DNA of 44,509 nucleotides from Candidatus Asgardarchaeum abyssi (lineage in GTDB: Archaea > Asgardarchaeota > Asgardarchaeia > Asgardarchaeales > Asgardarchaeaceae), in the NCBI GenBank assembly GCA_040225955.1, contig JBECUL010000014.1, positions 1 to 44,509 on the forward strand. Reading direction: 5' to 3'. Position numbers and translations under genes: made by a program. Shown one piece after another: positions 358 to 38,887 of the stretch (position 1 is its first letter; each line of letters starts with the position of its first letter). Under the pieces are notes generated by a model, which did no database searches, was not told where the DNA came from, and saw nothing but the letters and a program-made list of their open reading frames with translations.

Positions 358-504
358 AGTATAGAAAAATATTTTTAACACATGTTAATTTTTCCATAAA
401 AAATAATAACTTAATGTATAAAAGTTTATCAAAAAAATTCACAACATTTATTAGCAAGTGAACCTTAAAATCAATCGAATAACAACTAAAAGAGGTTGAT
501 AGAT

Positions 505-1758
505 GTGGCTAATGTTTTTAAAGATCCATATGAAATGGCTATTGAACAACTTGAACATGTTGCTAAAATAATGAATCTTGATAAAGGTATTGTAAAGTAT
601 CTTAAGAAGCCTAAAAGATCAGTTGAAGTAGCTATACCTGTTATCATGGATAATGGGGAGATTGAAGTTTTCATGGGATATAGAGTACATCATAATGATG
701 TTAGAGGCCCCTGTAAAGGTGGTATTCGTTATCACCCTAGTGTAACTCTCAATGAGGTAAAGGCTCTTGCTATGTGGATGACTTGGAAAACGGCAGTTGT
801 GAATTTACCCTATGGTGGTGCAAAAGGAGGCGTTGTTTGTGATCCAAAAAAGATGTCTGAAAAAGAGCTAGAGAAATTAACAAGAAGGTATATTGTCGCA
901 ATACTTGATGTTATTGGACCATATAAGGATGTTCCTGCACCAGATATTAATACAAATCCGAAAGTTATGGCATGGATAATGGATACATATAGCATGTACC
1001 ATGGATATGCAATACCAGAGGTTGTAACGGGTAAACCACTATCAGTTGGTGGTATTGCTGGAAGATTAGAAGCTACAGGTCGTGGTGTCATTATTGTTCT
1101 CAGAGAATTTTTAAAAAAACTTAACATGAATAGTAGTAACATAAAAATTGCGATTCAAGGCTTTGGTAATGTCGGCTCTCATGCGGCATTAACAGCAAAG
1201 GAATTTGGATATAAGGTGGTTGCCGTAAGTGATGTCGAAGGAGGCGTTTATAATCCAGATGGCTTAGAACCAGAAAAGGTACTCGAATACTCCAGGAAAA
1301 CTGGATCTGTTGTAGGATATCCTGAGGCAAAGACTATAACAAATGAAGAACTACTAGCTTTAGATGTTGACGTTCTAATTCCTGCAGCAATTGAAGGTAC
1401 TATTCATAGAAAGAATGCCGATAATATAAATGCAAAAATAATTATCGAAGGAGCTAACGGTCCTGTAACCCCTGAAGCAGATAGAATACTCAATGAGAAG
1501 GGTGTTGTAATAGTTCCTGACATTTTAGCCAATGCTGGTGGTGTAATCGTTAGCTACTTAGAATGGAATCAGAATCTGCACAGGGAAATATGGACTTTGG
1601 AGGAAGTACGTGCAAAACTTATGGCCCAGATGACTACAGCATTCAATGAAGTCTATTCTGTTTTTAAGGAAAAAGAAGTCACGATGAGAGAGGCCGCATA
1701 TATTGTTGCTCTAACAAGAGTCGTAGATGCACTGATGGACAGAGGCATATGGCCTTAA
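505..1758 (+). CDS. gdhA: Glu/Leu/Phe/Val dehydrogenase, glutamate dehydrogenase
   Basis: Motifs GPCKGGIRYHP, LPYGGAKGGV, DVPAPDINT, IQGFGNVG, EGANGP and PDILANAGGV. ORF opens at TTG 496; GTG 505 follows a GAGGT RBS. Confidence 0.95.
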   Translation: MANVFKDPYEMAIEQLEHVAKIMNLDKGIVKYLKKPKRSVEVAIPVIMDNGEIEVFMGYRVHHNDVRGPCKGGIRYHPSVTLNEVKALAMWMTWKTAVVNLPYGGAKGGVVCDPKKMSEKELEKLTRRYIVAILDVIGPYKDVPAPDINTNPKVMAWIMDTYSMYHGYAIPEVVTGKPLSVGGIAGRLEATGRGVIIVLREFLKKLNMNSSNIKIAIQGFGNVGSHAALTAKEFGYKVVAVSDVEGGVYNPDGLEPEKVLEYSRKTGSVVGYPEAKTITNEELLALDVDVLIPAAIEGTIHRKNADNINAKIIIEGANGPVTPEADRILNEKGVVIVPDILANAGGVIVSYLEWNQNLHREIWTLEEVRAKLMAQMTTAFNEVYSVFKEKEVTMREAAYIVALTRVVDALMDRGIWP

Positions 1759-2090: not shown

Positions 2091-2199
2091 AATTAAGAAA
2101 AAAATTGTCCATAGTGATTCAGAAAAATAATGTCCATTTTCTTTTAGTATTGTACAAGCACGAGTTGAGTTGGTGTAATCTGCAAGACATGCGTTATTA

Positions 2200-2270
2200 C
2201 AGTACTTCCGCACTAATTAGGTGAAAAATCCGTATTGGTTGCGAAAAAATTATTTTTTCCGCCGCACTCC
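2200..2270 (+). mobile_element. Solo left end of the CAGTACTTCCGCACTA element family
   Basis: CAGTACTTCCGCACTAATTAGGTGAAAAATCCGTATTGGTTGCGAAAA matches the reverse complement of 33559-33614 and, more loosely, of 2440-2487. Confidence 0.75.
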
Positions 2271-2325
2271 TTTTTGTCAGTGAAAAAATGATAGAAATGG
2301 AATTTTTATCATACACAACGAAATA

Positions 2326-2607
2326 AAGATTTCGTCTGGTACAGTACTTCCGCACTATTTTTTGGCTGGAGATGGACGTTAGTGGTTGGAAGGATGCTTG
2401 GAATTGCCGCCTCAACCTATGAAAATCAAATCGTAATAACCTTCCGCAACCAATACGGATTTTCATCAAATTAGTGCGGAAGTACTGTGGTAACATCTTG
2501 AGAATAGGTGATATAACACCGTTTTGGCACTTAGGAGTTGAAGGCTCATGGTAAATCATTTATAAATCACCCATTTTCGGATGTTACCTTCGTCTAGACG
2601 AAATCTT
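2326..2607. mobile_element. Outer MITE with long imperfect TIRs, interrupted by a nested MITE
   Basis: Perfect 16-bp inverted repeat 2322-2337 / 2596-2611. With the nested element removed, the arms continue as GGTAACATC-N-GA-N-AAT-R-GGTGAT (2489-2512 / 2566-2588). The right arm is 21/23 identical to 44376-44398. Flanked by TA on both sides. Confidence 0.6.
2342..2487. mobile_element. 146-bp MITE
   Basis: Perfect 16-bp TIRs CAGTACTTCCGCACTA (2342-2357) / TAGTGCGGAAGTACTG (2472-2487) and a 5-bp target duplication TGGTA (2337-2341, 2488-2492). Confidence 0.9.
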
Positions 2608-2629
2608 TATTAATGACCAAGTTATTAAT
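2597..2629 (+). promoter_or_regulatory. Candidate BRE/TATA promoter of the hdr-glt operon
   Basis: GACGAAATC followed by TTTATTAA (2606-2613), with a second TTATTAAT at 2622-2629. AGGAG RBS precedes ATG 2678. Confidence 0.4.
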
Positions 2630-2677: not shown

Positions 2678-5600
2678 ATGGAAAGTGCAACAGGCGATAT
2701 ACTTGTAGTCGGTGGTGGAGTTGCTGGCATTACAGCATCCTTAGAACTTGCTGAAAAAGGATTTAAAGTCTACTTAGTAGAGAAAGAGCCTTCAATTGGG
2801 GGTCGTATGGCTCAATTAGACAAAACTTTTCCAACTCTTGATTGTTCTATTTGTATTCTTGGACCAAAAATGGTTGAGGTTTCCAGGCATCCTAACATAC
2901 AACTTCTTACATATTCTGAAGTTATAGACGTAAAACCCATAAAAAACGGCTCCGCATTCAAGGTCAAAATACTTAAAAAACCACGATATGTAGATGAAGA
3001 AAAGTGTACAGGGTGTCGAAGGTGTACAGAAAAATGTCCAGTTAAGGTTCCTAGTGAATTTGAAGAACGAACAGGCTTAAGAAAAGCAATTTATATTCCT
3101 TTTCCTCAAGCTGTACCAAATATTGCAACCATTGACAAAAATCATTGTCTTTATTTTACTAAAGGGATTTGTAGAGTCTGTGAAAAAGTTTGCCCCATAA
3201 ATGCAATCAATTTTAACCAAAAGCCTCAAGAAATTGTAGTAGAAGTTGCTTCTATAATTATTGCAACTGGTTTTTCCCTCTTAGATCCGTCTATTCTACC
3301 ACAGTACGGGTATGGCAGATTTAAAGACGTTATAACCTCCTTACAATACGAACGTATTATGAATGCAGCTGGACCAACAGGTGGAGAAATCATTAGACCT
3401 TCAGATAAAACACATCCAAAAAGGATTGCAATTATTCAATGCATTGGATCTAGGAACAAAAAAATAAAGGACTATTGTTCGCAGATTTGTTGCATGTATG
3501 CAGCAAAACAGGCTATAGTTACGAAAGAACATAATCCAAATATAGATGTAATGGTTTTCTACAATGATCTAAATGCATCTGGCAAGGGTCACGAAGACTT
3601 ACTAAGAAGAGCTATTGAAGAATATGGAATTAAATACATAAAGGGTTTACCAAGCGAAGTTTTATGGGACGAAAAAAGTAAAAAATTATTAATAAGGTAT
3701 GCTGATCTTCTCAGCGGAGAAATTAAATCCATAGACGTGGATTTAGTAGTGCTTTGTCCTGCAGTAGTACCAAGGGAGGATACAACCAAATTAGCTGAAA
3801 TTTTCGGAGTAGAACTAAACAAGTTTGGGTTCTTTAAGTCTACTGGTAGTGTACCGGTCAATACTAATGTCCCCGGCATATATGTATGTGGTGCATGTCA
3901 AAACCCCAAAGATATTTCTCATAGCGTAATACAAGCACTAGCTGCTGCAGCTCAAGCAGCAAGCAGAGTAAAACATGTGAACAAGCAAAAAAACACTTCA
4001 AGTGGGGAAAAGCCTGTGAAAGATGAAAGATCGTTGAATCAAGAGCCGAGAATAGGGGTTTTCGTGTGTCACTGTGGTCTTAATATAGCTGCTGTTGTAG
4101 ATGTTAAGGCAGTCGTGGAGGAAGCGAAGAATCTTGATAATGTTGTTCATGCTGAAGATTTAATGTTCGCATGTTCTAAGGATGGGACAGAAAGAATTAA
4201 AGAAGCTATTAAAAAGTACAACCTTAACAGAGTTGTAGTGGCTTCATGTACTCCGAGAACTCATGAACCGTTGTTTCGCACCGCATGTGAAGAAGCTGGA
4301 CTAAATCCATACTTATTTGAAATGGTTAACATCAGGGAACAAGTTGCTTGGGTTCATAAAAATTACCCCGAAAAGGCAACCGAGAAAGCAAAAGAACTTG
4401 TTAGAATGGCTGTAGCGAAAGCAAGGCTCTTAGAACCGTTAGAGCGAATGGAAGTAGAAGTTACTCCTGCTGCTCTTGTTATTGGCGGAACAGTTAGTGG
4501 TCTTATAGCCGCGAAAAATATCGCTGACAGCGGATTTAAAACATATCTTGTCGAAAGCAGAGAGAAAATGGGATATGATCTATATCTCTACGAATACAAT
4601 GAAGGTGTTAAATGGATCTCTGAATTAATTAGCTCCATAAAAAAACATGAAAACATCGAGGTTCTTTCTTCCACCAAAATAGAAGATATTAAAGGCTCAA
4701 TAGGAAATTTTAGTGTTAAATTAAATCAAAATGGAGCTAATAAAGAAATTAAAGTTGGAACAGTTATTGTTGCAACCGGCGCCGAAGAGTTTAAACCAAA
4801 GGGTTTGTATGGCTACGGAAAATTCAGTAACATCTATACCCTAACTGAATTTCAGCAGATAGATGGCAACGTGAAAAATGAAGAAACCATAGTGTTTATC
4901 CTATGTGCTGGTAGTAGGGAAAATCTTGATCGAACGTACTGCTCTGCTGTTTGTTGTGAAAGAACTTTAATGGAAGCAGTTAAGATAAAGAATAAACATC
5001 CAAAACTGAATGTCTATGTGCTATACAGAGACATAAGGTTGCCAGTTAAAGGCGAAAAACTTTACCGCCAAGCTCGTGAACTTGGAATAATTTTCATAAG
5101 ATATAATTTAGATAAAAGACCTGAGGTCTATCAAGAAGACGGAAAACTTATCGTAAGTGCTTATGACATCACATCCTATGTAGACCTAAAAATATCCGCT
5201 GATAAAGTAGTTCTAGCTACACCAATTGTGCCTCCTGAAGAAAACCGTGAACTCGCATCTAAACTTAAAGTTCCTCTTAATAATTATGGATTTTTCTTAG
5301 AAGCCCATCCAAAACTTAGACCTGTAGATTTTGCTACCGATGGTATTTTTCTCTGCGGATTGGCGTATGGTCCGCAAAGATTAGATGAAAGTGTTTCCCA
5401 AGCGTTAGCTGCTGCTTCTAGAGCTCTTACTATACTAATGCGAGGAAAAGTGGCTACCGAGGGTATCATAGCTGATGTTAACCCGGAACTTTGTACAGGC
5501 TGTGGACGATGTGTAAACGTCTGCGAATTTGGCGCAATTAAACTAGAAATTGCTTCAAATGAACAGTTAGTGGCTAAAGTTAATCCACTATTATGTAAAG

Positions 5601-6130
5601 GCTGTGGCTCGTGCTCGGTTGAATGTCCAGCAAGAGCCATAACGATGCATCACTTTAGAACTGATCAAATTTTAAACATGCTTAGGGCGGCGTTTGAAAA
5701 ACCATTGCCAAGAGATCAAGTGAAAATCATAGCTTTTTTCTGTAATTGGTGCGGTTATGCTGCAGCAGATATGGCAGGTATAAGCCGCTACGAATATCCT
5801 CCAGCCGTTGAAATTATTCGAGTAATGTGTAGTGCTAGAGTAGATCCACTTCATATTTTATATGCTTTTCTACTAGGAGCCGATGGTGTGTTGATTGTTG
5901 GGTGTCATCCAGGTGATTGTCATTATATTTCAGGCAACTTAAGGGCCGAAGAACGCATATTAAGGGTAAAAGAATGGCTAAGAGACATTGGTTTGGAACC
6001 GGAAAGAGTTAGACTTGAATGGGCTTCGGCAGGAGAAGGATTAAGATTAGCCAAAATTATTGAGGAATTCACACTTCAAATAGAAGAGCTTGGATTAAAT
6101 CCTTTAAGAAGGAGGTTAATTGATGAGTAA
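2678..6130 (+). CDS. hdrA: Heterodisulfide reductase subunit A-like flavoprotein, tandem HdrA modules fused to C-terminal MvhD
   Basis: Module 1: GGGVAG FAD motif, LDKTFPTLDCSIC, inserted 2x[4Fe-4S], CSQICCMYAAK. Module 2: begins RIGVFVCHCG (~4049) with ASCTPRTHEPLF. Then a C-terminal ferredoxin and the MvhD motifs FCNWCGY, RVMCSARVD and GCHPGDCHY (~5720-6130). Confidence 0.93.
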   Translation: MESATGDILVVGGGVAGITASLELAEKGFKVYLVEKEPSIGGRMAQLDKTFPTLDCSICILGPKMVEVSRHPNIQLLTYSEVIDVKPIKNGSAFKVKILKKPRYVDEEKCTGCRRCTEKCPVKVPSEFEERTGLRKAIYIPFPQAVPNIATIDKNHCLYFTKGICRVCEKVCPINAINFNQKPQEIVVEVASIIIATGFSLLDPSILPQYGYGRFKDVITSLQYERIMNAAGPTGGEIIRPSDKTHPKRIAIIQCIGSRNKKIKDYCSQICCMYAAKQAIVTKEHNPNIDVMVFYNDLNASGKGHEDLLRRAIEEYGIKYIKGLPSEVLWDEKSKKLLIRYADLLSGEIKSIDVDLVVLCPAVVPREDTTKLAEIFGVELNKFGFFKSTGSVPVNTNVPGIYVCGACQNPKDISHSVIQALAAAAQAASRVKHVNKQKNTSSGEKPVKDERSLNQEPRIGVFVCHCGLNIAAVVDVKAVVEEAKNLDNVVHAEDLMFACSKDGTERIKEAIKKYNLNRVVVASCTPRTHEPLFRTACEEAGLNPYLFEMVNIREQVAWVHKNYPEKATEKAKELVRMAVAKARLLEPLERMEVEVTPAALVIGGTVSGLIAAKNIADSGFKTYLVESREKMGYDLYLYEYNEGVKWISELISSIKKHENIEVLSSTKIEDIKGSIGNFSVKLNQNGANKEIKVGTVIVATGAEEFKPKGLYGYGKFSNIYTLTEFQQIDGNVKNEETIVFILCAGSRENLDRTYCSAVCCERTLMEAVKIKNKHPKLNVYVLYRDIRLPVKGEKLYRQARELGIIFIRYNLDKRPEVYQEDGKLIVSAYDITSYVDLKISADKVVLATPIVPPEENRELASKLKVPLNNYGFFLEAHPKLRPVDFATDGIFLCGLAYGPQRLDESVSQALAAASRALTILMRGKVATEGIIADVNPELCTGCGRCVNVCEFGAIKLEIASNEQLVAKVNPLLCKGCGSCSVECPARAITMHHFRTDQILNMLRAAFEKPLPRDQVKIIAFFCNWCGYAAADMAGISRYEYPPAVEIIRVMCSARVDPLHILYAFLLGADGVLIVGCHPGDCHYISGNLRAEERILRVKEWLRDIGLEPERVRLEWASAGEGLRLAKIIEEFTLQIEELGLNPLRRRLIDE

Positions 6131-6635
6131 AGTAGTAATTTCTCCTAAATTAGTTGAGATAGATTCTAACTTAAAATTTGAGATTGCAAATACGGAATTA
6201 GGGGGTAAAGCTTTCTGGTGCATACAGTGTGGTATGTGTACCTCTGGATGTCCTGTTGCCGATTTTTTAAAACCCCACCGAATAGTTAGGATGGTAATGT
6301 TGGGACTTAAGGATCAACTAATCAACTGTAAGGAAATCTGGTTGTGTACTACATGTTTTACATGTTCAGAGAGATGTCCGCAAGAAGTTGATCCAGCAAA
6401 TATTATATTTTCATTAAAAAACATGGCAGCAGAACAAGGTGCAATTCCCAAAGGACTGAGAGATATAGGTAAGAATCTAGCCAAAACTGGGAGGGTTATT
6501 AAGGTTGGTACTGCTCGAGAAAGGGAAAGAATGAAACTTGGGCTTCCAAAGATTCCGCAAGTGCATGTTGAGAAAAATAGGAAAATACTGGAAGAAACTA
6601 GTCTTATAAAAACTTTGGAGAGGGCAAAGCAATGA
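6123..6635 (+). CDS. hdrC: Heterodisulfide reductase subunit C
   Basis: CIQCGMCTSGCP and WLCTTCFTCSERCPQ, plus C-terminal R..LGLP. Overlaps the hdrA stop. Confidence 0.92.
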   Translation: MSKVVISPKLVEIDSNLKFEIANTELGGKAFWCIQCGMCTSGCPVADFLKPHRIVRMVMLGLKDQLINCKEIWLCTTCFTCSERCPQEVDPANIIFSLKNMAAEQGAIPKGLRDIGKNLAKTGRVIKVGTARERERMKLGLPKIPQVHVEKNRKILEETSLIKTLERAKQ

Positions 6636-7513
6636 AATACGCATACTACTTGGGATGTTGGGTTCCAGCAAGAGTGAATCAGTATGATTTGTCTACGCGT
6701 GTTGTAGCAAAAAAACTTGGAATTGAACTTGTTGACCTAGAAGGTGCGGGTTGTTGCGGTACGGTACTTGTTCGTTCTGTAAACCTTAAGACTAATCTGG
6801 TGATGAGCGCTAGGATATTAGCGCTAGCTAAAAACATGGGACTTGATCTCCTTGTCATCTGCAACGGTTGTTACGAGTCTCTCATGGAAGCTGAGTATTT
6901 GGTTAAAACAAACGAAAATTTTAGAGAACAAGTTAATACCATACTCAAATCCACAGATAACATAGTCTATGAAGGTAATGAAAAAATTAAACACTTAATT
7001 CAAGTATTATATGATGATATAGGGCTTGAAAGACTTAGAGATGAGATCAAAAGACCGCTTGATGGGTTAAGAGTAGCAGTTCATTATGGCTGTCATATCT
7101 TACGTCCATCTTATAGATTGAAGTTTGACAATGCTGAGAATCCAAAAATACTCGATGATCTTGTTGAAATCACTGGTGCAAAGAGTATTTACTGGCCTTT
7201 AAAACTCTGGTGTTGCGGTTCGCCAATATTGGCGGTAAATAGGAATTTAAGTTTATCTATAGCTGGAATGAAACTTAAAAGTGCTAAAGAAGCTGGGGCT
7301 GACTGTATTGTAACCATTTGTCCATCATGTCAAATTCAATTTGACACTTTGCAACCAGAGATAAGCAAAGTTACTGGTGAGCAATACAATATGCCTGTAC
7401 TCCTTTATCCTCAGCTGCTCGGACTCGCTTTGGGTTTTACACCAGAAGAAGTAGGTTTACATCTCAATAAGATAAGTGCAGAAAGCTTGTTAAAGCATCA
7501 AAGTAAAGCTTAG
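6632..7513 (+). CDS. hdrB: Heterodisulfide reductase subunit B
   Basis: Two complete CCG domains (YYLGC…GCCG…CNGC and HYGCH…WCCG…CPSC). ATGA overlap with hdrC. Confidence 0.93.
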   Translation: MKYAYYLGCWVPARVNQYDLSTRVVAKKLGIELVDLEGAGCCGTVLVRSVNLKTNLVMSARILALAKNMGLDLLVICNGCYESLMEAEYLVKTNENFREQVNTILKSTDNIVYEGNEKIKHLIQVLYDDIGLERLRDEIKRPLDGLRVAVHYGCHILRPSYRLKFDNAENPKILDDLVEITGAKSIYWPLKLWCCGSPILAVNRNLSLSIAGMKLKSAKEAGADCIVTICPSCQIQFDTLQPEISKVTGEQYNMPVLLYPQLLGLALGFTPEEVGLHLNKISAESLLKHQSKA

Positions 7514-7515
7514 AG

Positions 7516-8631
7516 GTGAAAAGTGTGGTTAAGGTGCTTAAAAAGAAAGTTTGGGATGTAAATAGGTGTAGTGGGTGTGGGATGTGTGTTTCAACATGTG
7601 CAAAGAATGTTATACACTTTCCCGAAGATAGTGATCAACCAATTTTGGAGGTCAAAGAGAGAAACATTGGTTTGTCTCATGTAGTGGTAGATACTTGCTT
7701 CTTCTGCGAGAAGCCATGCGAAGAAAGTTGTCCCCGATTGAAAGAATGGAAAAATGGACCTGTAATTCGTATAATTTCCGCAGTTTCAAGGTTGCCGAGT
7801 GGTGACGTTATTGATGCATTACTAATTTCAGCACTTAGATGTGGACTCATTGACGGAGCAATTTTATGGGATGTAGAGAGAAATTCTTTTAAACCACTAC
7901 CTAGAGTTGCGACAAATGAAGATGAAATACTGAAAAGCGCAGGTTATCAACACTTATGGTTTCCAGTTCTTACAGCTTTAAATGACGCAATTTATGGAAG
8001 AGGATTAAGAAAAATAGCAATTGTTGGACCACCTTGCGTTGCCCAAGCGGTTAAAACCGTGCTTTCATCTACAAATAAAAAGCTTGAAATATATAGAGAA
8101 CGAATACGTTTAACCATCGGACTATTTTGTGATGGTATCTATTCCTATCAATTAGTAACCAACGAAATAGTTAATAGATTTAACATTAAACCCTACGATA
8201 TTAACACGGTAAAAGTAGATCTTAGAAACGCATTACTAAGAACTATAATGCATGATGGATCGGAAAAGGTTATCCCGTTGCCAGATATTCGAAAATATAT
8301 GAGGAACGGTTGCGCTCGCTGTACAGACTTCACATCGGAATGGGCTGATTTATCAGTTGGAGATTTAGGTTCAGAGAAAGGAAAAACTACTGTCATTGTT
8401 AGAACGCCTATTGGTGAAAACTGCTTGGATTATGCTATCAGAGAGGGAACTATAGAGATTGCGAAAACCCCCGTTAATATGGAAGAGATACAAAGATTTG
8501 TTTCAGACAAGAAAAGAAGAGAACAGGCACAAGAGGTAGATTCTCTTCTTTTATCAACGCTAAATGCTCTATCAGGCGAAAAAAGTAGAGAGGAAATCGA
8601 AGAAATGTTAAAGTCTATTGGGAGGAGGTAA
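7516..8631 (+). CDS. Coenzyme F420 hydrogenase/dehydrogenase beta-subunit family (FrhB/FdhB-like) protein with N-terminal ferredoxin
   Basis: CSGCGMCVSTC…CFFCEKPCEESCP, AIVGPPC, IGLFC, GCARCTDFTSEWADLSVGD and TVIVRT..G. Start may be GTG 7525. Confidence 0.88.
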   Translation: MKSVVKVLKKKVWDVNRCSGCGMCVSTCAKNVIHFPEDSDQPILEVKERNIGLSHVVVDTCFFCEKPCEESCPRLKEWKNGPVIRIISAVSRLPSGDVIDALLISALRCGLIDGAILWDVERNSFKPLPRVATNEDEILKSAGYQHLWFPVLTALNDAIYGRGLRKIAIVGPPCVAQAVKTVLSSTNKKLEIYRERIRLTIGLFCDGIYSYQLVTNEIVNRFNIKPYDINTVKVDLRNALLRTIMHDGSEKVIPLPDIRKYMRNGCARCTDFTSEWADLSVGDLGSEKGKTTVIVRTPIGENCLDYAIREGTIEIAKTPVNMEEIQRFVSDKKRREQAQEVDSLLLSTLNALSGEKSREEIEEMLKSIGRR

Positions 8632-8634
8632 ACG

Positions 8635-9294
8635 ATGGAATATAAAATAGATGCAAGTAATAAAGACTTAAAAACGGTAAATTCTGAGATTAGAAAGGTA
8701 ATTAAGAACGGAGTCGAGAAAATAGTAGTTGAAAATGCTTCCCATATTCATGGTCTTGCGGCAGGATTAAAAAACGGTAATGTTATCATAAACGGAGATG
8801 TAGGAGATTACACAGCTGCATTGAACGACGGTGCAACAATTACCATAAACGGTAATGCTGGTAAATTTTTGGCTGATAACATGACTAAAGGCACAATTAT
8901 TGTTAATGGAAATGCAGGATATGGAGCTGCAGAATATTGTTACGGTGGGTTAGTGGTAATACGTGGAGATGGCGGAGATTTTTTAGGCGCTTTAAATAAG
9001 GGGGCAACAATATTAGTTGCAGGGAATGCTGGAAACGACGTGGGGACCTACATGGTGGGAGGAGAAATAATAATAGTTGGAAATGTGGGTGAAAATGTGG
9101 GAAACTGGTTTATTCGCGGTAGCATTTTTGTTGGAGGAAAATGGCAAAGTTTAGGGCATAATTGCAAAGAGACACCGATAGAAAACGAAGATGTAAGGAA
9201 ACTTGAAGAATATTTTAATAAGTATAATATAAGCGCGGATCCGAAAAAATTTAAAAAAATAGTACCCATTTCGGTGAAGCCATTCTATAAATAA
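8635..9294 (+). CDS. Glutamate synthase domain 3 (GltB3, GXGXG/FwdC-like beta-helix)
   Basis: Repeated I-x-I-x-G-[DN]-[AV]-G-x-[FY]-x-[GA]-x-x-M-x-x-G units; ends FKKIVP. Confidence 0.88.
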   Translation: MEYKIDASNKDLKTVNSEIRKVIKNGVEKIVVENASHIHGLAAGLKNGNVIINGDVGDYTAALNDGATITINGNAGKFLADNMTKGTIIVNGNAGYGAAEYCYGGLVVIRGDGGDFLGALNKGATILVAGNAGNDVGTYMVGGEIIIVGNVGENVGNWFIRGSIFVGGKWQSLGHNCKETPIENEDVRKLEEYFNKYNISADPKKFKKIVPISVKPFYK

Positions 9295-9308
9295 GAGGTG
9301 ATAGTAGG

Positions 9309-10847
9309 ATGCCTATAGTAGGAGCCTATTGTGTTACAATGGATAGAGAACGTTGTATTAGTTGGAACATGCCTGGGAAATGTTCAACTTGTGTAGAGGT
9401 GTGTCCAAATTCTGTTTTTTCAACAGATGATATGGGTAGAGTCTATGTACTTAATGACTTGGCGTGCGTTGGTTGTAGAATTTGTATTGCAAATTGTCCT
9501 AACAATGTGATCCATATTCGACCAGCTGAATCTGAACGTTTCTCAAGAGGATTGTGGACATTTCAAGCAATTGAAGAAGTTCATTATAAAGCTGAAACTG
9601 GAAAATATTTACTCAGAGGATTTGGAACAATGGGATTAATGCCACATTTCGATGATTTAGTCATTGTACCAGCTCAACTTTATCCACCTGCCCCCAAAGA
9701 CAAATATAGAGAAGAGTGTAGAATGGATGTTGTAATTGGCGAAGGAAGAGTGAAAAAGCCTTTAAAGCTTAAAATACCCATTATGTTTGCTGCTATGTCA
9801 TATGGAGCTATTTCGAGGGAAGCTAAGATAGCTTTATCTATAGCAGCTGCCAAAATGGGAATTGCCACGTGTACAGGTGAAGGAGGTTCTTTTCCTGAGG
9901 AATATTATCTCGTACATGGCTATAAGAATGAAGAGGATTTCAAACGTGGTAAAAAAACATACAAACCTGGTGGACAGTTGATAGTTCAATGGGCTAGTGG
10001 CAGATGGGGGGTTTCTATCGATTACCTTAACAGATCAGACGCTATTGAAATTAAAATAGGACAAGGAGCAAAACCTGGCATGGGCGGTCATCTACTTGGA
10101 GAAAAGGTTACAGAGGAAATAGCTAAGATCCGTGGTATACCAGTTGGTACAGATTGCCTCTCACCATGCCGACACTATGATATTTACAATGTTAAAGAAG
10201 ATTTTAAAAAACAAATCGAGCTTCTTCGGGATGTAACAGGTTACGAAAAGCCAATTATTGTAAAACTAGGTCCTGGAAGGGTATATAAAGATGTTAAACT
10301 TGCTGCTGAAGCAGGTGCTGACGCAATTGCCATAGATGGGACACAAGGTGGAACGGGGGCTGCGCCAGAAATGGCTATTCAAACTGCTGGAATTCCAACA
10401 ATAGGATGTATTCCGCTTGCTGTTAAAGCGCTCGAAGATTTAGGTTTACGTGATGAAGTGAAAATTATTGCAATGGGCGGAATCCGTAATGGGGCAGATG
10501 CGGTAAAAGCTTTAGCGCTAGGCGCTGATTGTGTAGCGATAGCTTCTGCAGCCTTGATTGCAATGGGATGTCGTGTATGTACACAATGTCTCAGAGGAAA
10601 ATGTCCATATGGTATAACATCTCAAGATCCAGAACTCCGAAAGAGGCTTCAACCAGAAAAAGCTGCCGAGCGACTAGTTAACTTCTTAAAAGCTATGGCT
10701 GAGGAGATTAAGATGCTTACGATGCTTTCAGGTCACGATGATATTCATCAATTATCAAAGGAGGATCTACGAGCTTTAGATGTCAATGCTGCAGCCATAA
10801 CTGGTGTAAAGCTTGTGGGCTTAGAAAAATATATCCTCGAAAAATAG
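9309..10847 (+). CDS. gltB2: Archaeal glutamate synthase FMN-binding subunit (GltB2) with N-terminal 2x[4Fe-4S] ferredoxin
   Basis: AMSYGAIS, TGEGG, QWASGRWG, IEIKIGQGAKPGMGGHL, DGTQGGTGAAP, GGIRNGADAVKALALGAD and CRVCTQCLRGKCPYGI. Confidence 0.92.
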   Translation: MPIVGAYCVTMDRERCISWNMPGKCSTCVEVCPNSVFSTDDMGRVYVLNDLACVGCRICIANCPNNVIHIRPAESERFSRGLWTFQAIEEVHYKAETGKYLLRGFGTMGLMPHFDDLVIVPAQLYPPAPKDKYREECRMDVVIGEGRVKKPLKLKIPIMFAAMSYGAISREAKIALSIAAAKMGIATCTGEGGSFPEEYYLVHGYKNEEDFKRGKKTYKPGGQLIVQWASGRWGVSIDYLNRSDAIEIKIGQGAKPGMGGHLLGEKVTEEIAKIRGIPVGTDCLSPCRHYDIYNVKEDFKKQIELLRDVTGYEKPIIVKLGPGRVYKDVKLAAEAGADAIAIDGTQGGTGAAPEMAIQTAGIPTIGCIPLAVKALEDLGLRDEVKIIAMGGIRNGADAVKALALGADCVAIASAALIAMGCRVCTQCLRGKCPYGITSQDPELRKRLQPEKAAERLVNFLKAMAEEIKMLTMLSGHDDIHQLSKEDLRALDVNAAAITGVKLVGLEKYILEK

Positions 10848-21990: not shown

Positions 21991-22974
21991 ATGGTGATTA
22001 TAATGAGCGTGAAAGTAGCCGATTTGCATCACGATTTAATACGTAGGCTTCGAACACCAATCTTCTTGGGATCTTATAAGAAACTGCCAGAGAAGGATTT
22101 AATTAAATTATACTCATCAAATTTTCATATTGTATTAACTGCCATATTTACGCTAATGACCTATGATACTCAGTTTCGTGAGATTGCATTATTAGATCCT
22201 TTTCGTGAGGCTATAACACAAATAATCTATTACGATCACTTAATACGAAGAAACAGTAATCTCTTGAAAAAAATTCTTACATTTGATAATTATCTTGATG
22301 CCAAGAGTAGCGATACTGCTGGTTTTCTATATCATGTCGAAGGCATTTATGGCGTTGAAACACTAAGCGATTTTGAAGCACTTTATAATTTGGGTATGCG
22401 TTCTTTTTCACTAACATGGAATCTTGGAAATTCATTTGGCAGCGGTTGTAAAGATAAAAAAGATATAGGCCTAACTAGCAGAGGTGAAGAAATAATCAAT
22501 TTTGCACTAGGACATAGTATTCTTATAGATTTGGCTCATCTTAGTACAAAAACGGCTTTAGATGTCCTCGAAATTGCAGATAGAAATGTTTTCATCAGTC
22601 ATACTGGATTAAGGCCATTAACCAATATAAGTAGAAATGCTGATGAAAAAGTAATTGAAGGCGTTGTGGACCGAAAAGGGGTAATCGGTATAATCTTCCA
22701 TAAAGGTATGCTAAAAGTTAATGATTGTAAGCCACTAGATTGTTTCCTTAAACACATGGATTATATCATTGAAAATTATGGAATTGACTATGTAGCTATA
22801 GGAAGTGACTTATACGGAATTATGCCAGAGGACTCAATATATTTCAAATCTGGCGAAGTTGATGATGTTGGAGCAGTAATATCTCTCTTAAGTGAAAGAT
22901 ATAGTAAGACCGAAATTGAAAAAATCGCATATCTTAATTTTGAGAATTTTCTTAAGAGGTCGTTGAGTAAATAA
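21991..22974 (+). CDS. Membrane dipeptidase family (peptidase M19)
   Basis: DLHHD, HVEG, LTWN..N.FG.G, IDLAH, SHTG, RN and IGSD. Start may be 22003. Confidence 0.88.
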   Translation: MVIIMSVKVADLHHDLIRRLRTPIFLGSYKKLPEKDLIKLYSSNFHIVLTAIFTLMTYDTQFREIALLDPFREAITQIIYYDHLIRRNSNLLKKILTFDNYLDAKSSDTAGFLYHVEGIYGVETLSDFEALYNLGMRSFSLTWNLGNSFGSGCKDKKDIGLTSRGEEIINFALGHSILIDLAHLSTKTALDVLEIADRNVFISHTGLRPLTNISRNADEKVIEGVVDRKGVIGIIFHKGMLKVNDCKPLDCFLKHMDYIIENYGIDYVAIGSDLYGIMPEDSIYFKSGEVDDVGAVISLLSERYSKTEIEKIAYLNFENFLKRSLSK

Positions 22975-30293: not shown

Positions 30294-30392
30294 GCAAAAC
30301 ACATATTCGTAGTTAAATAGGTTACAAAATTTTATATTCTAGAGCTAATGTTTTTTATTAATGGGTTATACATTAATAATGGGTGTTATTTT

Positions 30393-30920
30393 ATGACGGA
30401 AACTGAGGAAAGGCAGAGAATCTGGATTTTTGTAGATCCTTTAAGATGTAGCGGATGTAGACTTTGTGAAATTGCTTGTTCTTTGAAACATGAAAATATC
30501 ATATGGCCTGAAGCGTCCAGAATCAGAGTTTTTGAACTAATCCCTGGAGTTGATGTACCACATCTTTGTGTCCAATGTCCTGATTATCCATGCGTGAATT
30601 CATGTCCAACTAAGGCTCTCTCCATTGATGAAGCTACGGGTGCTGTTTTAGTTGATGAAGAAAAATGCGTGCGCTGTGGAGTATGTATAAAAGCATGCCC
30701 TGGAAATATTCCAAGAATACCAAATAATAGGAAGTCTGTTGTTATTTGCGATCTCTGTGGGGGAAATCCTGCTTGTGTTGATATATGTCAAGAAGCAGGG
30801 TATGGAGCGTTATCATTATTTAAAGGAATTTACAATCAAATATTTCAAACGTATGCCAAGAATCCTCTTGAAAAGAGCTTTGATATAGCCAAAAAAATGT
30901 ATAACTGGGAGGAGATATGA
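30393..30920 (+). CDS. 4x[4Fe-4S] polyferredoxin small subunit, WOR5-S type
   Basis: Four Cys cluster motifs. RIWI…CSGCRLCE..CSL.HE.IIWPEASRIRVFEL closely recalls the Pyrococcus WOR5 small subunit (from memory). ORF opens at 30348. Confidence 0.88.
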   Translation: MTETEERQRIWIFVDPLRCSGCRLCEIACSLKHENIIWPEASRIRVFELIPGVDVPHLCVQCPDYPCVNSCPTKALSIDEATGAVLVDEEKCVRCGVCIKACPGNIPRIPNNRKSVVICDLCGGNPACVDICQEAGYGALSLFKGIYNQIFQTYAKNPLEKSFDIAKKMYNWEEI

Positions 30921-30921
30921 T

Positions 30922-37882: not shown

Positions 37883-38887
37883 ATGAGTGTTATTGATTCT
37901 GCAAAAAATGCATTACTTGCAGTGCTTGAAGCTGAGCCGGGAGAGAAAATCTTAATTATAGCAGATCAAGAAAAAGAAGAAGTTGCAAATGCCTTTTCTA
38001 ATGCAGCACTAGAAATTGGATTATGGGTAAGGCGAATTATCTTGGAGAAACCAAAAGAGTATAGAAAAGAGGTACCTGTGTATCTTAAGGAAATTGTTTT
38101 ATCAAGTAACGTAGATATTTTCATGAATCTACTGCGTGGTGTAGCCGAAGAGGTATCATTTAGAATACGGTTAATTAAGCTTGAAACAAGACGAAAACTT
38201 AGGCTTGCTCATTGTCCTGGAGTCACAATTGATATGTTAAAGGATGGTGCATTGTCTCTAACAATAGATGAATATAGAAAAATGCAGGATTTAGCTCAGC
38301 GATTACTTTTAGCTCTTTCCGACGTTGAAAAGGTTATCGTTAGAAATCCACATGGTACAGATGTGGAATTTTCTGTAAAGGGAAGAACCTTCTTTACGGA
38401 CGTTAAATTTGACTGGAAGACAATGAAATGGATAAATATACCAGTAGGTGAAGTCATAGTGGCCCCTGTTGAAAATGGTATGAATGGAGTAATTGTAGCG
38501 GATCTAGCAGCAGGTGGAATTGGTAAACTAAAAAGCCCAATTAAATTCATTGTTGAGGAAGGAAGTATTAGAAGCATAGAATGTGAAGATCGAGAGGTTA
38601 AGAATCGAGTAACTAATCTTCTTCTAAATACTGATAGTATGTCCAAAACAATAGGCGAGTTTGCAATCGGGTTGAATAAAAAAGCAAGGATAACTGATGA
38701 ATTTTTAGAAGCTGAGAAAGTAGACAAAACCGTACATTTTGCATTTGGGAATAATGAAGACTTCCCTGGAGGTAAAAACACATCGCGAATTCATATAGAT
38801 TTTCTATTAAGCAAGCCCGATGTTACAATTATATACGAAGATGGTAGAGAAAAAGATATCATGAGGAATGGGCAGTTATTACTTTAA
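37883..38887 (+). CDS. Aminopeptidase, M29 (thermophilic metalloprotease) family
   Basis: GTD..F, NIPVGEV, GEFAIGLN, EAEK…TVHFAFG and HIDF. Confidence 0.9.
   Translation: MSVIDSAKNALLAVLEAEPGEKILIIADQEKEEVANAFSNAALEIGLWVRRIILEKPKEYRKEVPVYLKEIVLSSNVDIFMNLLRGVAEEVSFRIRLIKLETRRKLRLAHCPGVTIDMLKDGALSLTIDEYRKMQDLAQRLLLALSDVEKVIVRNPHGTDVEFSVKGRTFFTDVKFDWKTMKWINIPVGEVIVAPVENGMNGVIVADLAAGGIGKLKSPIKFIVEEGSIRSIECEDREVKNRVTNLLLNTDSMSKTIGEFAIGLNKKARITDEFLEAEKVDKTVHFAFGNNEDFPGGKNTSRIHIDFLLSKPDVTIIYEDGREKDIMRNGQLLL

What the first reader, a model, noticed from the sequence alone, without database searches (positions are those of the whole stretch)
2678..10847. Hdr-MvhD / FrhB / GltB3 / GltB2 operon with no amidotransferase: candidate electron-bifurcating glutamate oxidoreductase
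Seen: six same-strand genes with overlaps or gaps of 14 nt or less (hdrA-mvhD, hdrC, hdrB, frhB-like, gltB3, fd-gltB2). There is no hydrogenase, formate dehydrogenase or Flx gene and no GltB1 glutamine amidotransferase, and gdhA lies just upstream. Established: HdrABC-MvhD bifurcates electrons from a docked donor module (MvhAG, or FdhAB whose FdhB is an FrhB-family F420H2 entry point). FrhB+GltB2+GltB3 has been proposed as an F420-dependent glutamate synthase in methanogens, and the GltB FMN domain interconverts glutamate and 2-iminoglutarate. Inference: the Glt module may be the donor arm of the Hdr, oxidising glutamate to 2-oxoglutarate + NH3 (no glutaminase needed) and passing electrons via its ferredoxins and FrhB to MvhD-HdrA, which reduces ferredoxin plus a disulfide. 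The reverse (confurcating ammonia assimilation) is also possible. I know of no characterised Hdr-glutamate synthase complex.
Basis: partly seen in the sequence, partly recalled or inferred. Interest (0 to 1): 0.9.

Follow-up and report, generated by a model that had tools for sequence, protein, structure and literature searches.

The report
Hdr-wired, amidotransferase-free glutamate synthase operon
An uncultured heat-loving archaeon carries a tight six-gene operon that joins an electron-splitting heterodisulfide-reductase module, through an iron-sulfur adaptor, to a glutamate synthase core with no glutamine-splitting part. The same four-gene core recurs in many archaeal phyla and in bacteria, and no paper I could search describes it.

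Summary
Six + strand genes at 2678-10847 overlap or lie 14 nt or less apart: tandem hdrA-mvhD, hdrC, hdrB, an frhB-like gene, gltB3 and fd-gltB2. The genome's only gdhA lies upstream. The MAG is Culexarchaeia-like and 93.5% complete, and no GltB1, MCR, ComA or CofG/H was found in it.

The linkage is not a local accident. HdrA-MvhD + FrhB-like + GltB3 + fd-GltB2 forms an invariant core. I found it in Culexarchaeia, other Thermoproteota, Geothermarchaeales, Bathyarchaeia, Loki- and Hodarchaeales, Methanomassiliicoccales and Anaerolineae.

In a tree of 82 GltB2 sequences, all 25 Hdr-linked ones fall in one clade. None of the 35 GltB1-linked ones lies inside it, and no locus has both.

The accessory modules differ between lineages: HdrCB, NuoEF (NADH), MvhGA (H2) or none.

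Glutamate (E0' about -0.14 V) cannot drive reduction of both ferredoxin and a disulfide.

My best reading is a reversible flavin-based bifurcating or confurcating enzyme. In it the glutamate/2-oxoglutarate+NH3 couple is the high-potential arm.

The FrhB-like subunit lacks two motifs kept by F420-reducing relatives, so it is probably an Fe-S adaptor.

Earlier notes of this scan describe the same system on other DNA (Asgard, Anaerolineae). I found no paper on it.

The parts
496..1758 (+). gdhA, glutamate dehydrogenase (420 aa). It is the only GDH detected in the assembly. It is separated from hdrA by a 0.9-kb spacer that holds short ORFs and repeats on the opposite strand.
   Evidence: ELFV_dehydrog and ELFV_dehydrog_N hits. 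NF040817 GdhA_Arch scores 617 bits, below its 750-bit cut-off. PS00074 motif LPYGGAKGGVVCDP and Rossmann motif GFGNVG are present. It is the only tblastn hit in the genome. A canonical GDH also flanks the cluster in L011, L013, L014, L028 and L036.
2678..6130 (+). Tandem ('type II', A3+MVH-like) HdrA fused to MvhD, 1150 aa. Unit 1 (residues 5-429) is a canonical FAD core with the inserted ferredoxin domain. Residues 455-560 form the N-terminal [4Fe-4S] domain of unit 2. The unit 2 core is degenerate. It is followed by a C-terminal 2x[4Fe-4S] domain (939-983) and the MvhD domain (1017-1139).
   Evidence: Unit 1 has the only GxGxxG motif (GGGVAG at residue 12). It keeps E225 and K277, the equivalents of E356 and K409 that PMC12054007 names as marks of bifurcating HdrA. 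Unit 2 reads GGTVSG and has Q and M at those two sites. The MvhD cysteines are conserved in 21 homologues (A3).
6120..6635 (+). hdrC, with 2x[4Fe-4S]. The likely start is the ATG at 6123.
   Evidence: TIGR03290 scores 110 bits, below its cut-off of 160. Two CxxCxxCxxxC motifs are present. It overlaps the end of hdrA.
6632..7513 (+). hdrB, the disulfide-reducing subunit with two CCG domains.
   Evidence: TIGR03288 scores 302 bits, below its cut-off of 345. Two CCG domains are found. All ten cysteines of the two non-cubane cluster motifs are present: C9, C41, C42, C77, C80 and C154, C194, C195, C230, C233.
7516..8631 (+). FrhB-family subunit ('FrhB1'). It has an N-terminal 2x[4Fe-4S] ferredoxin domain, an FrhB core with its [4Fe-4S] cysteines, and a C-terminal helical tail. 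The canonical flavin/F420-type motifs are altered.
   Evidence: The best solved relatives are the F420-reductase modules of 8RIU_B and 8RJA_E (PMC11493965). The xGG(V/I) loop reads SGDV, and GSxY reads GYQH. Both changes are shared by all 35 clade members.
8635..9294 (+). gltB3, the GXGXG beta-helix domain protein (219 aa).
   Evidence: PF01493. It lies immediately upstream of gltB2 in the window and in the related loci, except L033 and L036, where it sits upstream of hdrA.
9309..10847 (+). fd-gltB2: an N-terminal 2x[4Fe-4S] ferredoxin domain followed by the FMN/Fe-S glutamate synthase domain (512 aa). There is no amidotransferase domain and no central domain.
   Evidence: PF01645 scores 392 bits. 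It aligns to GOGAT alpha-subunit residues 854-1156. The motifs QGAKPGxGG, GEGG and R275, and the cluster motif C421xxC424xxC427xxxxC432P, are invariant across the 14 sequences of alignment A2.

Best explanation
The six genes most likely encode one soluble iron-sulfur flavoprotein complex of the Hdr/MvhD electron-bifurcating kind. Its special catalytic module is an ammonia-dependent glutamate synthase core, GltB2 (FMN) with GltB3.

Inferred wiring: GltB2 FMN <-> its [Fe-S] cluster <-> the GltB2 N-terminal 2x[4Fe-4S] <-> three [4Fe-4S] clusters of the FrhB-like adaptor <-> the MvhD [2Fe-2S] <-> the single competent FAD of the tandem HdrA. From that FAD, further branches run to ferredoxin (the HdrA ferredoxin domains) and to HdrC-HdrB (a thiol/disulfide).

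In energy terms, the 2-oxoglutarate+NH3/glutamate couple (E0' about -0.14 V, the same as CoM-S-S-CoB) is the high-potential arm.
- In the reductive direction, its exergonic reduction pays for ferredoxin reduction by a mid-potential donor.
- In the oxidative direction, reduced ferredoxin (for example from 2-oxoacid:ferredoxin oxidoreductases) is co-oxidised to pull the otherwise unfavourable oxidation of glutamate. This would suit a peptide fermenter.

The mid-potential partner differs by lineage: NADH via NuoEF in Anaerolineae, and H2 via MvhGA in one archaeal variant. In this window it is unresolved. Candidates are the HdrBC thiol couple, F420H2 acting directly on the HdrA2-like subunit, or a module supplied in trans.

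What is shown: gene content, motifs, conservation, mutual exclusion with GltB1, and a separate GltB2 clade. What is inferred: physical assembly, wiring, substrate, bifurcation and direction.
For: (1) Translationally coupled genes.

(2) The four-gene core HdrA-MvhD/FrhB1/GltB3/fd-GltB2 is conserved in:
- 5 Culexarchaeia-type MAGs
- a 'Nitrososphaeria'-labelled Thermoproteota MAG
- Geothermarchaeales
- Bathyarchaeia
- Hodarchaeales, Promethearchaeota and one unnamed metagenome contig with the same architecture
- Methanomassiliicoccales
- Anaerolineales
- 10 HdrA-linked loci (plus L034, which starts with HdrC-HdrB-FrhB at the contig edge) among the 80 metagenome loci

(3) In the tree, the 25 HdrA-linked GltB2 lie in one clade (SH-aLRT 96) that contains no GltB1-linked row. 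Among loci with at least 5 kb upstream, 22/24 in that clade have HdrA against 0/27 outside it. GltB1 is present in 0/24 against 21/27.

(4) Accessory modules swap. NuoE/NuoF occur without HdrBC (L032, L041, L043, L044, L048). MvhG/MvhA occur without HdrBC (L012). The core occurs alone in L031, L042 and L009. Where the only other redox partners are NADH or H2, thermodynamics leaves Glt as the high-potential arm.

(5) HdrA unit 1 keeps the FAD motif and the E356/K409 equivalents; unit 2 does not. That leaves one bifurcation site.

(6) GltB2 keeps the GOGAT FMN-domain motifs.

(7) A canonical GDH lies next to the cluster in 8 of 24 clade loci against 1 of 27 others. AsnC-type regulators lie upstream in L012 and L025. 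The window itself is rich in peptidases and has an AOR.

(8) Precedent: FrhB-type modules with the same domain layout plug into CODH and Fwd as electron ports (PMC11493965). HdrA2B2C2 bifurcates from F420H2 (PMC5296606).
Against: - There is no biochemical, structural or expression evidence for any member.
- In this window both HdrBC and Glt are present and no mid-potential donor is encoded in the operon, so the three-arm scheme is incomplete here.
- In canonical Mvh-Hdr, the MvhD path carries the mid-potential donor, not the high-potential acceptor.
- Why a separate, canonical GDH should sit beside an enzyme that acts on the same couple is unexplained.
- The residue-level assignment of 2-oxoglutarate ligands rests on my memory of the Synechocystis Fd-GOGAT numbering.
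- Conservation counts include related genomes, and part of the sample was reached through FrhB1 homologues.
Confidence: 0.5

Rival explanations
1. The Glt module is the electron donor: glutamate is oxidised, and HdrA bifurcates its electrons to ferredoxin and to a disulfide at HdrBC.
For: The topology fits canonical Mvh/Fdh-Hdr complexes, where the MvhD-linked module is the donor. HdrB has intact CCG clusters. GDH adjacency and the peptidase-rich context suggest glutamate catabolism.
Against: Thermodynamics, using textbook potentials and my own arithmetic. A donor at -0.14 V (about -0.25 V at cell-like concentrations) cannot reduce ferredoxin (-0.45 V or lower) unless the co-acceptor lies at roughly 0 to +0.17 V. 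Known disulfides lie at -0.14 to -0.3 V. HdrBC is also dispensable in close and distant relatives (L009, L012, L031, L032).
Confidence: 0.05
2. A non-bifurcating assimilatory enzyme. The complex would be an ammonia-dependent glutamate synthase that simply takes electrons from reduced ferredoxin, and/or from thiols via HdrBC. HdrA-MvhD-FrhB1 would serve only as an electron-input wire.
For: The genome has glutamine synthetase but no GltB1-type GOGAT. The reaction is strongly exergonic. The core also occurs in Methanomassiliicoccales, which are not known as amino-acid fermenters.
Against: Plant-type Fd-GOGAT needs no flavoprotein between ferredoxin and its Fe-S/FMN centres (established knowledge). 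Yet a bifurcation-competent HdrA unit with E356/K409 equivalents is conserved throughout. It also recruits NADH or H2 modules in other lineages. The organism already has a GDH for ammonia assimilation.
Confidence: 0.2
3. Two enzymes share an operon. FrhB1-GltB3-GltB2 would be a free-standing F420H2-dependent (FGltS-like) ammonia-type glutamate synthase. HdrA-MvhD/HdrCB would be a separate HdrA2B2C2-like F420H2:disulfide/ferredoxin enzyme. They would be co-transcribed because both use F420.
For: FGltS has been proposed for methanogens and ANME (PMC3087415; PMC9012536). The HdrA scores above the HdrA2 cut-off, although the tandem duplication inflates that score. CofD and CofE are present.
Against: FrhB1 lacks the motifs kept by the classical FGltS-linked FrhB and by solved F420 reductases. 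CofG/CofH were not found. Classical FGltS loci carry GltB1 and no Hdr, and their GltB2 falls in other clades. The HdrA-FrhB1-Glt link persists in bacteria with NuoEF and without HdrBC.
Confidence: 0.12
4. The GltB2/GltB3 module acts on a substrate other than glutamate/2-oxoglutarate, such as another 2-oxo or imino acid. Alternatively it is only an FMN/Fe-S electron-transfer module.
For: Loss of GltB1 and of the central domain removes the glutamine-coupled context. Some sources annotate relatives as 'alpha-hydroxy-acid oxidizing protein' or 'methylamine-glutamate N-methyltransferase subunit C'. In Asgard and Bathyarchaeia loci the upstream GDH paralogue lacks the catalytic-Lys signature.
Against: The GOGAT FMN-domain motifs are invariant between the Hdr-linked sequences and the one GltB1-linked (L027) sequence in alignment A2. 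Canonical GDH genes co-localise with the cluster.
Confidence: 0.1

Closest known systems
MvhAGD-HdrABC and FdhAB-MvhD-HdrABC electron-bifurcating complexes of methanogens (PDB 5ODC, 7BKB, 8RVU)
   Same: The HdrA FAD core, the inserted and C-terminal ferredoxin domains, the MvhD [2Fe-2S] adaptor, HdrC and the HdrB CCG clusters are all present. In FdhAB-MvhD-HdrABC the docked donor module also contains an FrhB-family subunit (FdhB).
   Different: HdrA is a single-chain pseudo-dimer with one competent FAD unit. The operon has no hydrogenase or formate dehydrogenase. The organism has no MCR or ComA. The module next to MvhD is a glutamate synthase core whose couple is high-potential, not a low- or mid-potential donor.
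HdrA2B2C2 of Methanosarcina acetivorans (F420H2- and ferredoxin-dependent bifurcating Hdr; PMC5296606)
   Same: It has an HdrA-MvhD fusion with HdrB and HdrC and no hydrogenase partner. The NCBIfam HdrA2 model is the best hit.
   Different: HdrA2 has one thioredoxin-reductase unit, whereas this protein is tandem ('type II, A3+MVH' in the scheme of PMC12054007). The above-cut-off score is the sum over two units. No Glt module is known for HdrA2B2C2.
Putative F420-dependent glutamate synthase (FGltS) of methanogens and ANME (FrhB + GltB1 + GltB2 + GltB3)
   Same: A split GOGAT with an FrhB-family subunit next to GltB3 and GltB2.
   Different: FGltS-type loci contain GltB1 and no HdrA (L027, L056, L065, L071). 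Their FrhB keeps the xGG(V/I) and GSxY motifs. Their GltB2 lies in other clades. FGltS itself has not been purified (PMC3087415).
F420-reductase modules of the Ethanoperedens CODH and Fwd complexes (PDB 8RIU zeta subunit, 8RJA FwdI; PMC11493965)
   Same: These are the best solved relatives of the FrhB-like subunit. They share its layout: an N-terminal 2x[4Fe-4S] ferredoxin domain, an FrhB core, and a C-terminal extension (present in the 8RIU zeta subunit; FwdI of 8RJA lacks it). They show that such modules plug onto other oxidoreductases.
   Different: Those modules bind FAD and reduce F420. The window's protein differs at two motifs they conserve.
Lactate dehydrogenase/Etf of Acetobacterium woodii and other confurcating dehydrogenases (from my own knowledge, not checked here)
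   Same: The proposed logic is the same. Oxidation of a high-potential substrate is made feasible by co-oxidising reduced ferredoxin.
   Different: The proteins are unrelated (Etf-based). The comparison is an analogy of mechanism only.

Membership tests
HdrABC-MvhD flavin-based electron-bifurcating heterodisulfide reductase | HdrA with an FAD-binding thioredoxin-reductase core and the residues associated with bifurcation (E356, K409) | tested here: met
   Unit 1 has GGGVAG, E225 and K277, aligned to 5ODC_A residues 143-563 (residues named in PMC12054007). Unit 2 lacks all three.
HdrABC-MvhD flavin-based electron-bifurcating heterodisulfide reductase | HdrB with two CCG motifs (non-cubane [4Fe-4S] clusters) and HdrC with 2x[4Fe-4S] | tested here: met
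   Ten HdrB cysteines and two CCG motifs are present. HdrC has two CxxCxxCxxxC motifs. The TIGR03288 and TIGR03290 scores are below their equivalog cut-offs.
HdrABC-MvhD flavin-based electron-bifurcating heterodisulfide reductase | CoM-S-S-CoB as substrate (the organism makes CoM/CoB and has MCR) | tested here: not met
   PF02249 (MCR alpha) and PF02679 (ComA) were not found in the 93.5%-complete assembly. PMC9723716 also reports incomplete CoM/CoB pathways in Culexarchaeia.
HdrABC-MvhD flavin-based electron-bifurcating heterodisulfide reductase | A docked mid-potential donor module (MvhAG, FdhAB or similar) encoded with it | tested here: not met
   None is present in the operon or the window. 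A separate MvhD-MvhG-MvhA-HdrC-HdrB cluster lies on contig C85.
Glutamate synthase (GOGAT) | Ntn-type glutamine amidotransferase domain (GltB1, PF00310) | tested here: not met
   Not found in the operon, the window or the whole assembly. Also not found in any of the 25 HdrA-linked loci.
Glutamate synthase (GOGAT) | FMN/Fe-S synthase domain with the conserved substrate and FMN motifs | tested here: met
   PF01645 scores 392 bits. The protein aligns to residues 854-1156 of the A. brasilense alpha subunit. QGAKPGxGG, GEGG and R275 are invariant. The cluster motif has four cysteines instead of three. The mapping of residues to 2-oxoglutarate ligands is from memory.
Glutamate synthase (GOGAT) | C-terminal GXGXG beta-helix domain | tested here: met
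   Present as the separate gene gltB3, PF01493.
Glutamate synthase (GOGAT) | Catalysis of 2-oxoglutarate amination or glutamate oxidation | not testable with these tools
   An enzyme assay is needed.
Putative F420-dependent glutamate synthase (FGltS) | FrhB-family subunit able to oxidise F420H2, together with GltB1, GltB2 and GltB3 | tested here: not met
   GltB1 is absent. FrhB1 lacks the xGG(V/I) and GSxY motifs kept by FGltS-linked FrhB proteins (P0059, P0063). GltB2 lies in a different clade. CofG/CofH were not found, while CofD/CofE are present.
FrhB/FdhB family (PF04422 and PF04432) | The two Pfam domains and the [4Fe-4S] cysteines | tested here: met
   PF04432 scores 123 bits and PF04422 scores 41 bits. 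C174, C205, C266 and C269 are invariant.
FrhB/FdhB family (PF04422 and PF04432) | FAD and F420 binding | tested here: inconclusive
   Two motifs conserved in 8RIU_B, 8RJA_E and 9R51_B are replaced throughout the clade. I could not verify which residues contact FAD or F420.

The most novel reading that the evidence does not exclude
A previously unrecognised, widespread class of reversible electron-bifurcating glutamate dehydrogenase/synthase. It would be present from Asgard archaea to Anaerolineae. An HdrA flavin would couple the glutamate/2-oxoglutarate+NH3 couple to ferredoxin and to a lineage-specific mid-potential carrier (NADH, H2, F420H2 or a low-potential dithiol). This would let peptide fermenters oxidise glutamate at H2 or NADH levels that would otherwise forbid it. 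In the reverse direction it would let anaerobes gain reduced ferredoxin from nitrogen assimilation.
Probability: 0.4. Interest if true: 0.85.

Novelty: new variant of a known kind. Interest (0 to 1): 0.75.

Why it matters
Glutamate is the hub of amino-acid catabolism and of nitrogen assimilation.

A bifurcating or confurcating enzyme on this couple would change the energy budgets drawn for peptide-fermenting Bathyarchaeia, Culexarchaeia and Asgard archaea. The latter include the lineages used to model the metabolism of the archaeal ancestor of eukaryotes. It would also add a new substrate class to flavin-based electron bifurcation.

The modular swaps between NuoEF, MvhGA and HdrCB amount to natural experiments. 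The Anaerolineae version offers a tractable route to biochemistry.

The finding also matters for annotation. A large share of the proteins annotated 'glutamate synthase-related' belong to this Hdr-linked clade, not to a conventional GOGAT.

Tried and rejected
- **Complex prediction**, MvhD domain (A3) against FrhB1 (A4): scores 0.08 and 0.21, below the mark. No verdict, so it is not used as evidence either way.
- **Literature searches** for an Hdr-Glt complex returned only unrelated uses: GltD-type HdrL or type III HdrA, FGltS, and Flx-Hdr in rTCA clusters.
- **Chance juxtaposition of two operons:** rejected on conservation and phylogeny.
- **HdrBC as an obligatory part:** rejected, because it is absent in L009, L012, L031, L032 and L042.
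- **F420H2 entry at FrhB1:** considered and down-weighted on the motif evidence and the missing CofG/H.
- **HdrBC working on a lipoyl-type dithiol** (E0' about -0.29 V, which would balance the three arms): considered but untested. No lipoyl-carrier gene lies in the operon.
- **Not done:** I did not fold FrhB1 or GltB2. I could not verify the FAD-contact residues of FrhB from a paper.

Full report
**Observation**

The window is contig C14 of a 2.64-Mb, 189-contig assembly that is 93.5% complete with 7.8% contamination. The nearest public relatives of its genes are MAGs labelled Candidatus Baldrarchaeota, Culexmicrobium profundum and Thermoproteota 'Kor1'. That places it in the Culexarchaeia lineage described in PMC9723716.

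Six + strand ORFs lie at 2678-6130, 6120-6635, 6632-7513, 7516-8631, 8635-9294 and 9309-10847. Their junctions are -11 nt (or -8 nt from the ATG at 6123), -4, +2, +3 and +14 nt, and each is preceded by a purine-rich ribosome-binding box.

Pfam and NCBIfam identify them as follows:
- an HdrA fused to MvhD
- HdrC
- HdrB with two CCG domains
- an FrhB/FdhB-family protein with an N-terminal ferredoxin domain
- a GXGXG protein (GltB3)
- a ferredoxin-fused glutamate synthase FMN domain (GltB2)

A canonical glutamate dehydrogenase lies upstream at 496-1758. It is the only GDH that tblastn finds in the assembly.

The rest of the window holds transporters, peptidases (M19, M29, S8), GlmS and an aldehyde:ferredoxin oxidoreductase. 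It has no hydrogenase, formate dehydrogenase or Flx gene. About 0.8 kb of AT-rich non-coding DNA follows the operon.

PF00310 (GltB1) is not found in the genome, while glutamine synthetase is present. MCR, ComA, CofG and CofH were not found. CofD and several CofE copies are present. A separate, conventional MvhD-MvhG-MvhA-protease-HdrC-HdrB cluster sits on contig C85, and a lone 525-aa FrhB paralogue sits on C82.

**Anatomy of the subunits**

*HdrA.* The 1150-aa HdrA is a single-chain pseudo-dimer.
- Residues 5-429 align to residues 143-563 of the Methanothermococcus HdrA of 5ODC at 471 bits. They carry the only GxGxxG motif, plus E225 and K277. These are the equivalents of E356 and K409, which PMC12054007 gives as marks of bifurcating HdrA.
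- Residues 455-560 are a second N-terminal [4Fe-4S] domain.
- The second core reads GGTVSG, has lost the GGRMxQLDKTFPTxDCSxC stretch and the inserted ferredoxin domain, and has Q and M at the two marker positions.
- It is followed by a 2x[4Fe-4S] domain and MvhD.

This matches the 'type II, A3+MVH' class of PMC12054007. So there is probably one bifurcating flavin, one MvhD port and one HdrC port.

*HdrB.* It has all ten cysteines of the two CCG motifs.

*The FrhB-like protein.* It keeps eleven cluster cysteines, enough for three [4Fe-4S] clusters. However, it reads SGDV where 8RIU_B, 8RJA_E and FrhB (9R51_B) have (N/D)GG(V/I), and GYQH where they have G(S/T)x-Y. All 35 members of its clade share these changes, including bacterial and Methanomassiliicoccales ones. 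The FrhB proteins of classical GltB1-containing loci, and a second FrhB next to hdrCB in Bathyarchaeia and Hodarchaeales, keep the canonical motifs.

Its solved relatives are F420-reductase modules that plug onto CODH and Fwd (PMC11493965). I therefore read this subunit as an Fe-S adaptor. Whether it still binds a flavin is untested.

*GltB2.* It aligns to the FMN domain of bacterial GOGAT and keeps QGAKPGxGG, GEGG and R275. Its cluster motif has four cysteines, CxxCxxCxxxxCP, and this is shared with GltB1-linked archaeal-type GltB2.

**Conservation**

*Close relatives.* The same six genes in the same order occur in four other Culexarchaeia-type MAGs. A fifth close relative (L009) has hdrA-frhB-gltB3-gltB2 without hdrCB.

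*Distant relatives, reached through FrhB1 and GltB2 homologues.* All share the core HdrA-MvhD, FrhB1, GltB3 and fd-GltB2:
- a 'Nitrososphaeria'-labelled Thermoproteota MAG with HdrCB and a downstream GDH
- Geothermarchaeales with hdrC-hdrB first
- two Bathyarchaeia
- Hodarchaeales and Promethearchaeota, plus one unnamed metagenome contig with the same architecture
- Methanomassiliicoccales with the four-gene core alone
- Anaerolineales bacteria, where NuoE, NuoF and a 2Fe-2S/4Fe-4S protein precede a single-unit HdrA-MvhD and there is no HdrBC
- one archaeal contig with two HdrA, two MvhD and MvhG-MvhA but no HdrBC

*Metagenome survey.* A scan seeded with a GltB2 alignment returned 80 loci. Ten are HdrA-linked, 34 are GltB1-linked and none is both.

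*Tree.* In a maximum-likelihood tree of 82 GltB2 sequences, all 25 HdrA-linked rows lie in one 38-row clade (SH-aLRT 96). That clade contains no GltB1-linked row. Its other members are mostly contig-edge fragments.

*Counts.* Among loci with at least 5 kb upstream:

| Feature near GltB2 | Hdr-linked clade | Other clades |
|---|---|---|
| HdrA present | 22 of 24 | 0 of 27 |
| GltB1 present | 0 of 24 | 21 of 27 |
| GDH nearby | 8 of 24 | 1 of 27 |

Related genomes are not independent, and part of the sample was reached through FrhB1, so the exact P-values overstate the case. The pattern itself is unambiguous.

*Within the phylum.* In 400 sampled genomes of the window's phylum, 10 carry a GltB2 at 63% identity or more, which is the clade's range. 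The rest are at 51% or less.

**Mechanism**

The gene-level evidence supports one complex. The glutamate synthase core would be wired through its own ferredoxin domain, FrhB1 and MvhD to the HdrA flavin.

The direction can only be argued from energetics. The textbook E0' of 2-oxoglutarate + NH4+/glutamate is about -0.14 V. My Nernst estimate with millimolar 2-oxoglutarate and ammonium and tens of millimolar glutamate is about -0.25 V.

Reducing ferredoxin (-0.45 V or lower) with this donor would need a co-acceptor at roughly 0 to +0.17 V. No known thiol/disulfide couple is that positive.

The couple does have the same potential as CoM-S-S-CoB, the high-potential acceptor of Mvh-Hdr. In the variants whose only other partners are NADH (NuoEF) or H2 (MvhGA), the one sensible three-arm arrangement is a mid-potential donor, ferredoxin as the low arm and Glt as the high arm.
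- Forward, this is an energy-conserving, ammonia-dependent glutamate synthase.
- In reverse, it is a confurcating glutamate dehydrogenase. Co-oxidation of reduced ferredoxin would allow NADH or H2 formation from glutamate at much higher product levels.

The reverse direction would suit the peptide-fermenting lifestyles proposed for Culexarchaeia, Bathyarchaeia and Asgard archaea (PMC9723716; PMC7015854).

In this window the third arm is open. The options are:
- the HdrBC thiol couple, if it is low-potential
- F420H2 acting directly on the HdrA2-like subunit, as in M. acetivorans HdrA2B2C2 (PMC5296606), although FO synthase genes were not found
- a partner supplied in trans

The role of the adjacent canonical GDH is not explained. 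In Asgard and Bathyarchaeia loci an additional upstream GDH paralogue lacks the catalytic-lysine signature.

**Comparison and novelty**

The parts belong to known families: type II HdrA-MvhD, HdrBC, the FrhB family and the archaeal split GOGAT. The assembly fails defining features of each named system.
- It is not a CoM-S-S-CoB reductase.
- It has no donor hydrogenase or formate dehydrogenase.
- It is not a glutamine-dependent GOGAT.
- It is not the proposed FGltS.

The Culexarchaeia paper mentions only a possible HdrABC-FrhB complex. The HdrA survey of methane-metabolising archaea reports type II HdrA with a molybdopterin protein and FdhB. No paper in the searchable library links HdrA/MvhD with GltB2/GltB3. 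Subscription journals are largely outside that library.

Earlier AI notes of this scan describe the same system on other DNA, in Asgard archaea and Anaerolineae. I had reached those lineages independently, and I treat the notes as leads only.

I class the finding as a new variant of a known kind: an Hdr-type bifurcating complex with a new catalytic module. It is of high interest because of its breadth and its position in central nitrogen and amino-acid metabolism.

**Limits**

- There is no expression, binding or activity evidence.
- The cofactor content of FrhB1, the identity of the HdrB substrate and the physiological direction remain open.

Noticed in passing
window 2180-2620: The gdhA-hdrA spacer holds inverted copies of CAGTACTTCCGCACTAATT / AATTAGTGCGGAAGTACTG and other short repeats. 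They look like small non-autonomous mobile elements sitting just upstream of the operon's likely promoter. Another note of the scan (e1-5593538) calls them nested MITEs.
   Followed up: no
L014:6816-7997, L026:10001-11182, L013:10001-11182, L025:10001-11188, L032:6132-7301: The FrhB1 proteins of Asgard archaea, Bathyarchaeia, Geothermarchaeales and Anaerolineae end in a cysteine-rich tail, for example GGCNGCSGC or VSCGEC. The tail is absent from the window's protein and from the Methanomassiliicoccales one. It could be an extra cluster ligand set or a redox-active thiol arm.
   Followed up: partly
L013:5111-6310, L014:1621-2706, L026:4815-6008, L028:4745-5998: In Bathyarchaeia and Asgard loci, a GDH-family paralogue directly upstream of hdrA lacks the catalytic-lysine signature (PS00074). 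A canonical GDH lies downstream of hdrB. The window has only the canonical type.
   Followed up: partly
L005:6812-8199: In one close relative, hdrC and hdrB are only 46% and 57% identical to the window's genes. The flanking hdrA, frhB, gltB3 and gltB2 are 84-93% identical. This suggests replacement of the hdrCB cassette.
   Followed up: no
L009:4039-11554: A close relative (81-88% identity) has hdrA-frhB-gltB3-gltB2 with no hdrCB. It also has a 0.6-kb gap between frhB and gltB3.
   Followed up: partly
L012:5216-15692: This variant operon has two separate HdrA genes (792 aa with MvhD, and 656 aa), a free MvhD, FrhB1, GltB3, GltB2 and then MvhG-MvhA. It has no HdrBC. Two AsnC-type regulators lie upstream.
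   Followed up: partly
G000 contig C85 (L030:1-7578): The genome has a second, conventional cluster: MvhD-MvhG-MvhA, a HycI-type protease, HdrC-HdrB, then a 2Fe-2S/4Fe-4S protein and a fumarate-reductase-type flavoprotein.
   Followed up: partly
G000 contigs C12, C3, C101, C1, C6: Four CofE-type genes and one CofD score above their curated cut-offs, but no CofG or CofH was found. The organism may salvage the FO headgroup, may use these genes for something else, or the assembly may miss the synthase.
   Followed up: partly
L055, L064 (GltB3-GltB2 alone); L075:6552-8884 (GDH directly upstream of GltB2): Other GltB2 contexts have neither HdrA nor GltB1. In L055 and L064, which lie on a long branch inside the Hdr-linked clade, a GltB3-GltB2 pair stands alone. 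In L075 a GDH gene abuts GltB2.
   Followed up: no
L026:13432-13772: A short FrhB-like remnant lies between gltB2 and hdrC in a Promethearchaeota locus. Hodarchaeales and Bathyarchaeia have an intact second FrhB at that position.
   Followed up: no
window 30348-32799: A 4Fe-4S protein gene and an aldehyde:ferredoxin oxidoreductase gene lie in tandem. Several peptidase genes are also in the window: M19 at 21991-22974, M29 at 37883-38887 and S8 at 41070-44078. This fits a peptide-fermenting lifestyle.
   Followed up: no
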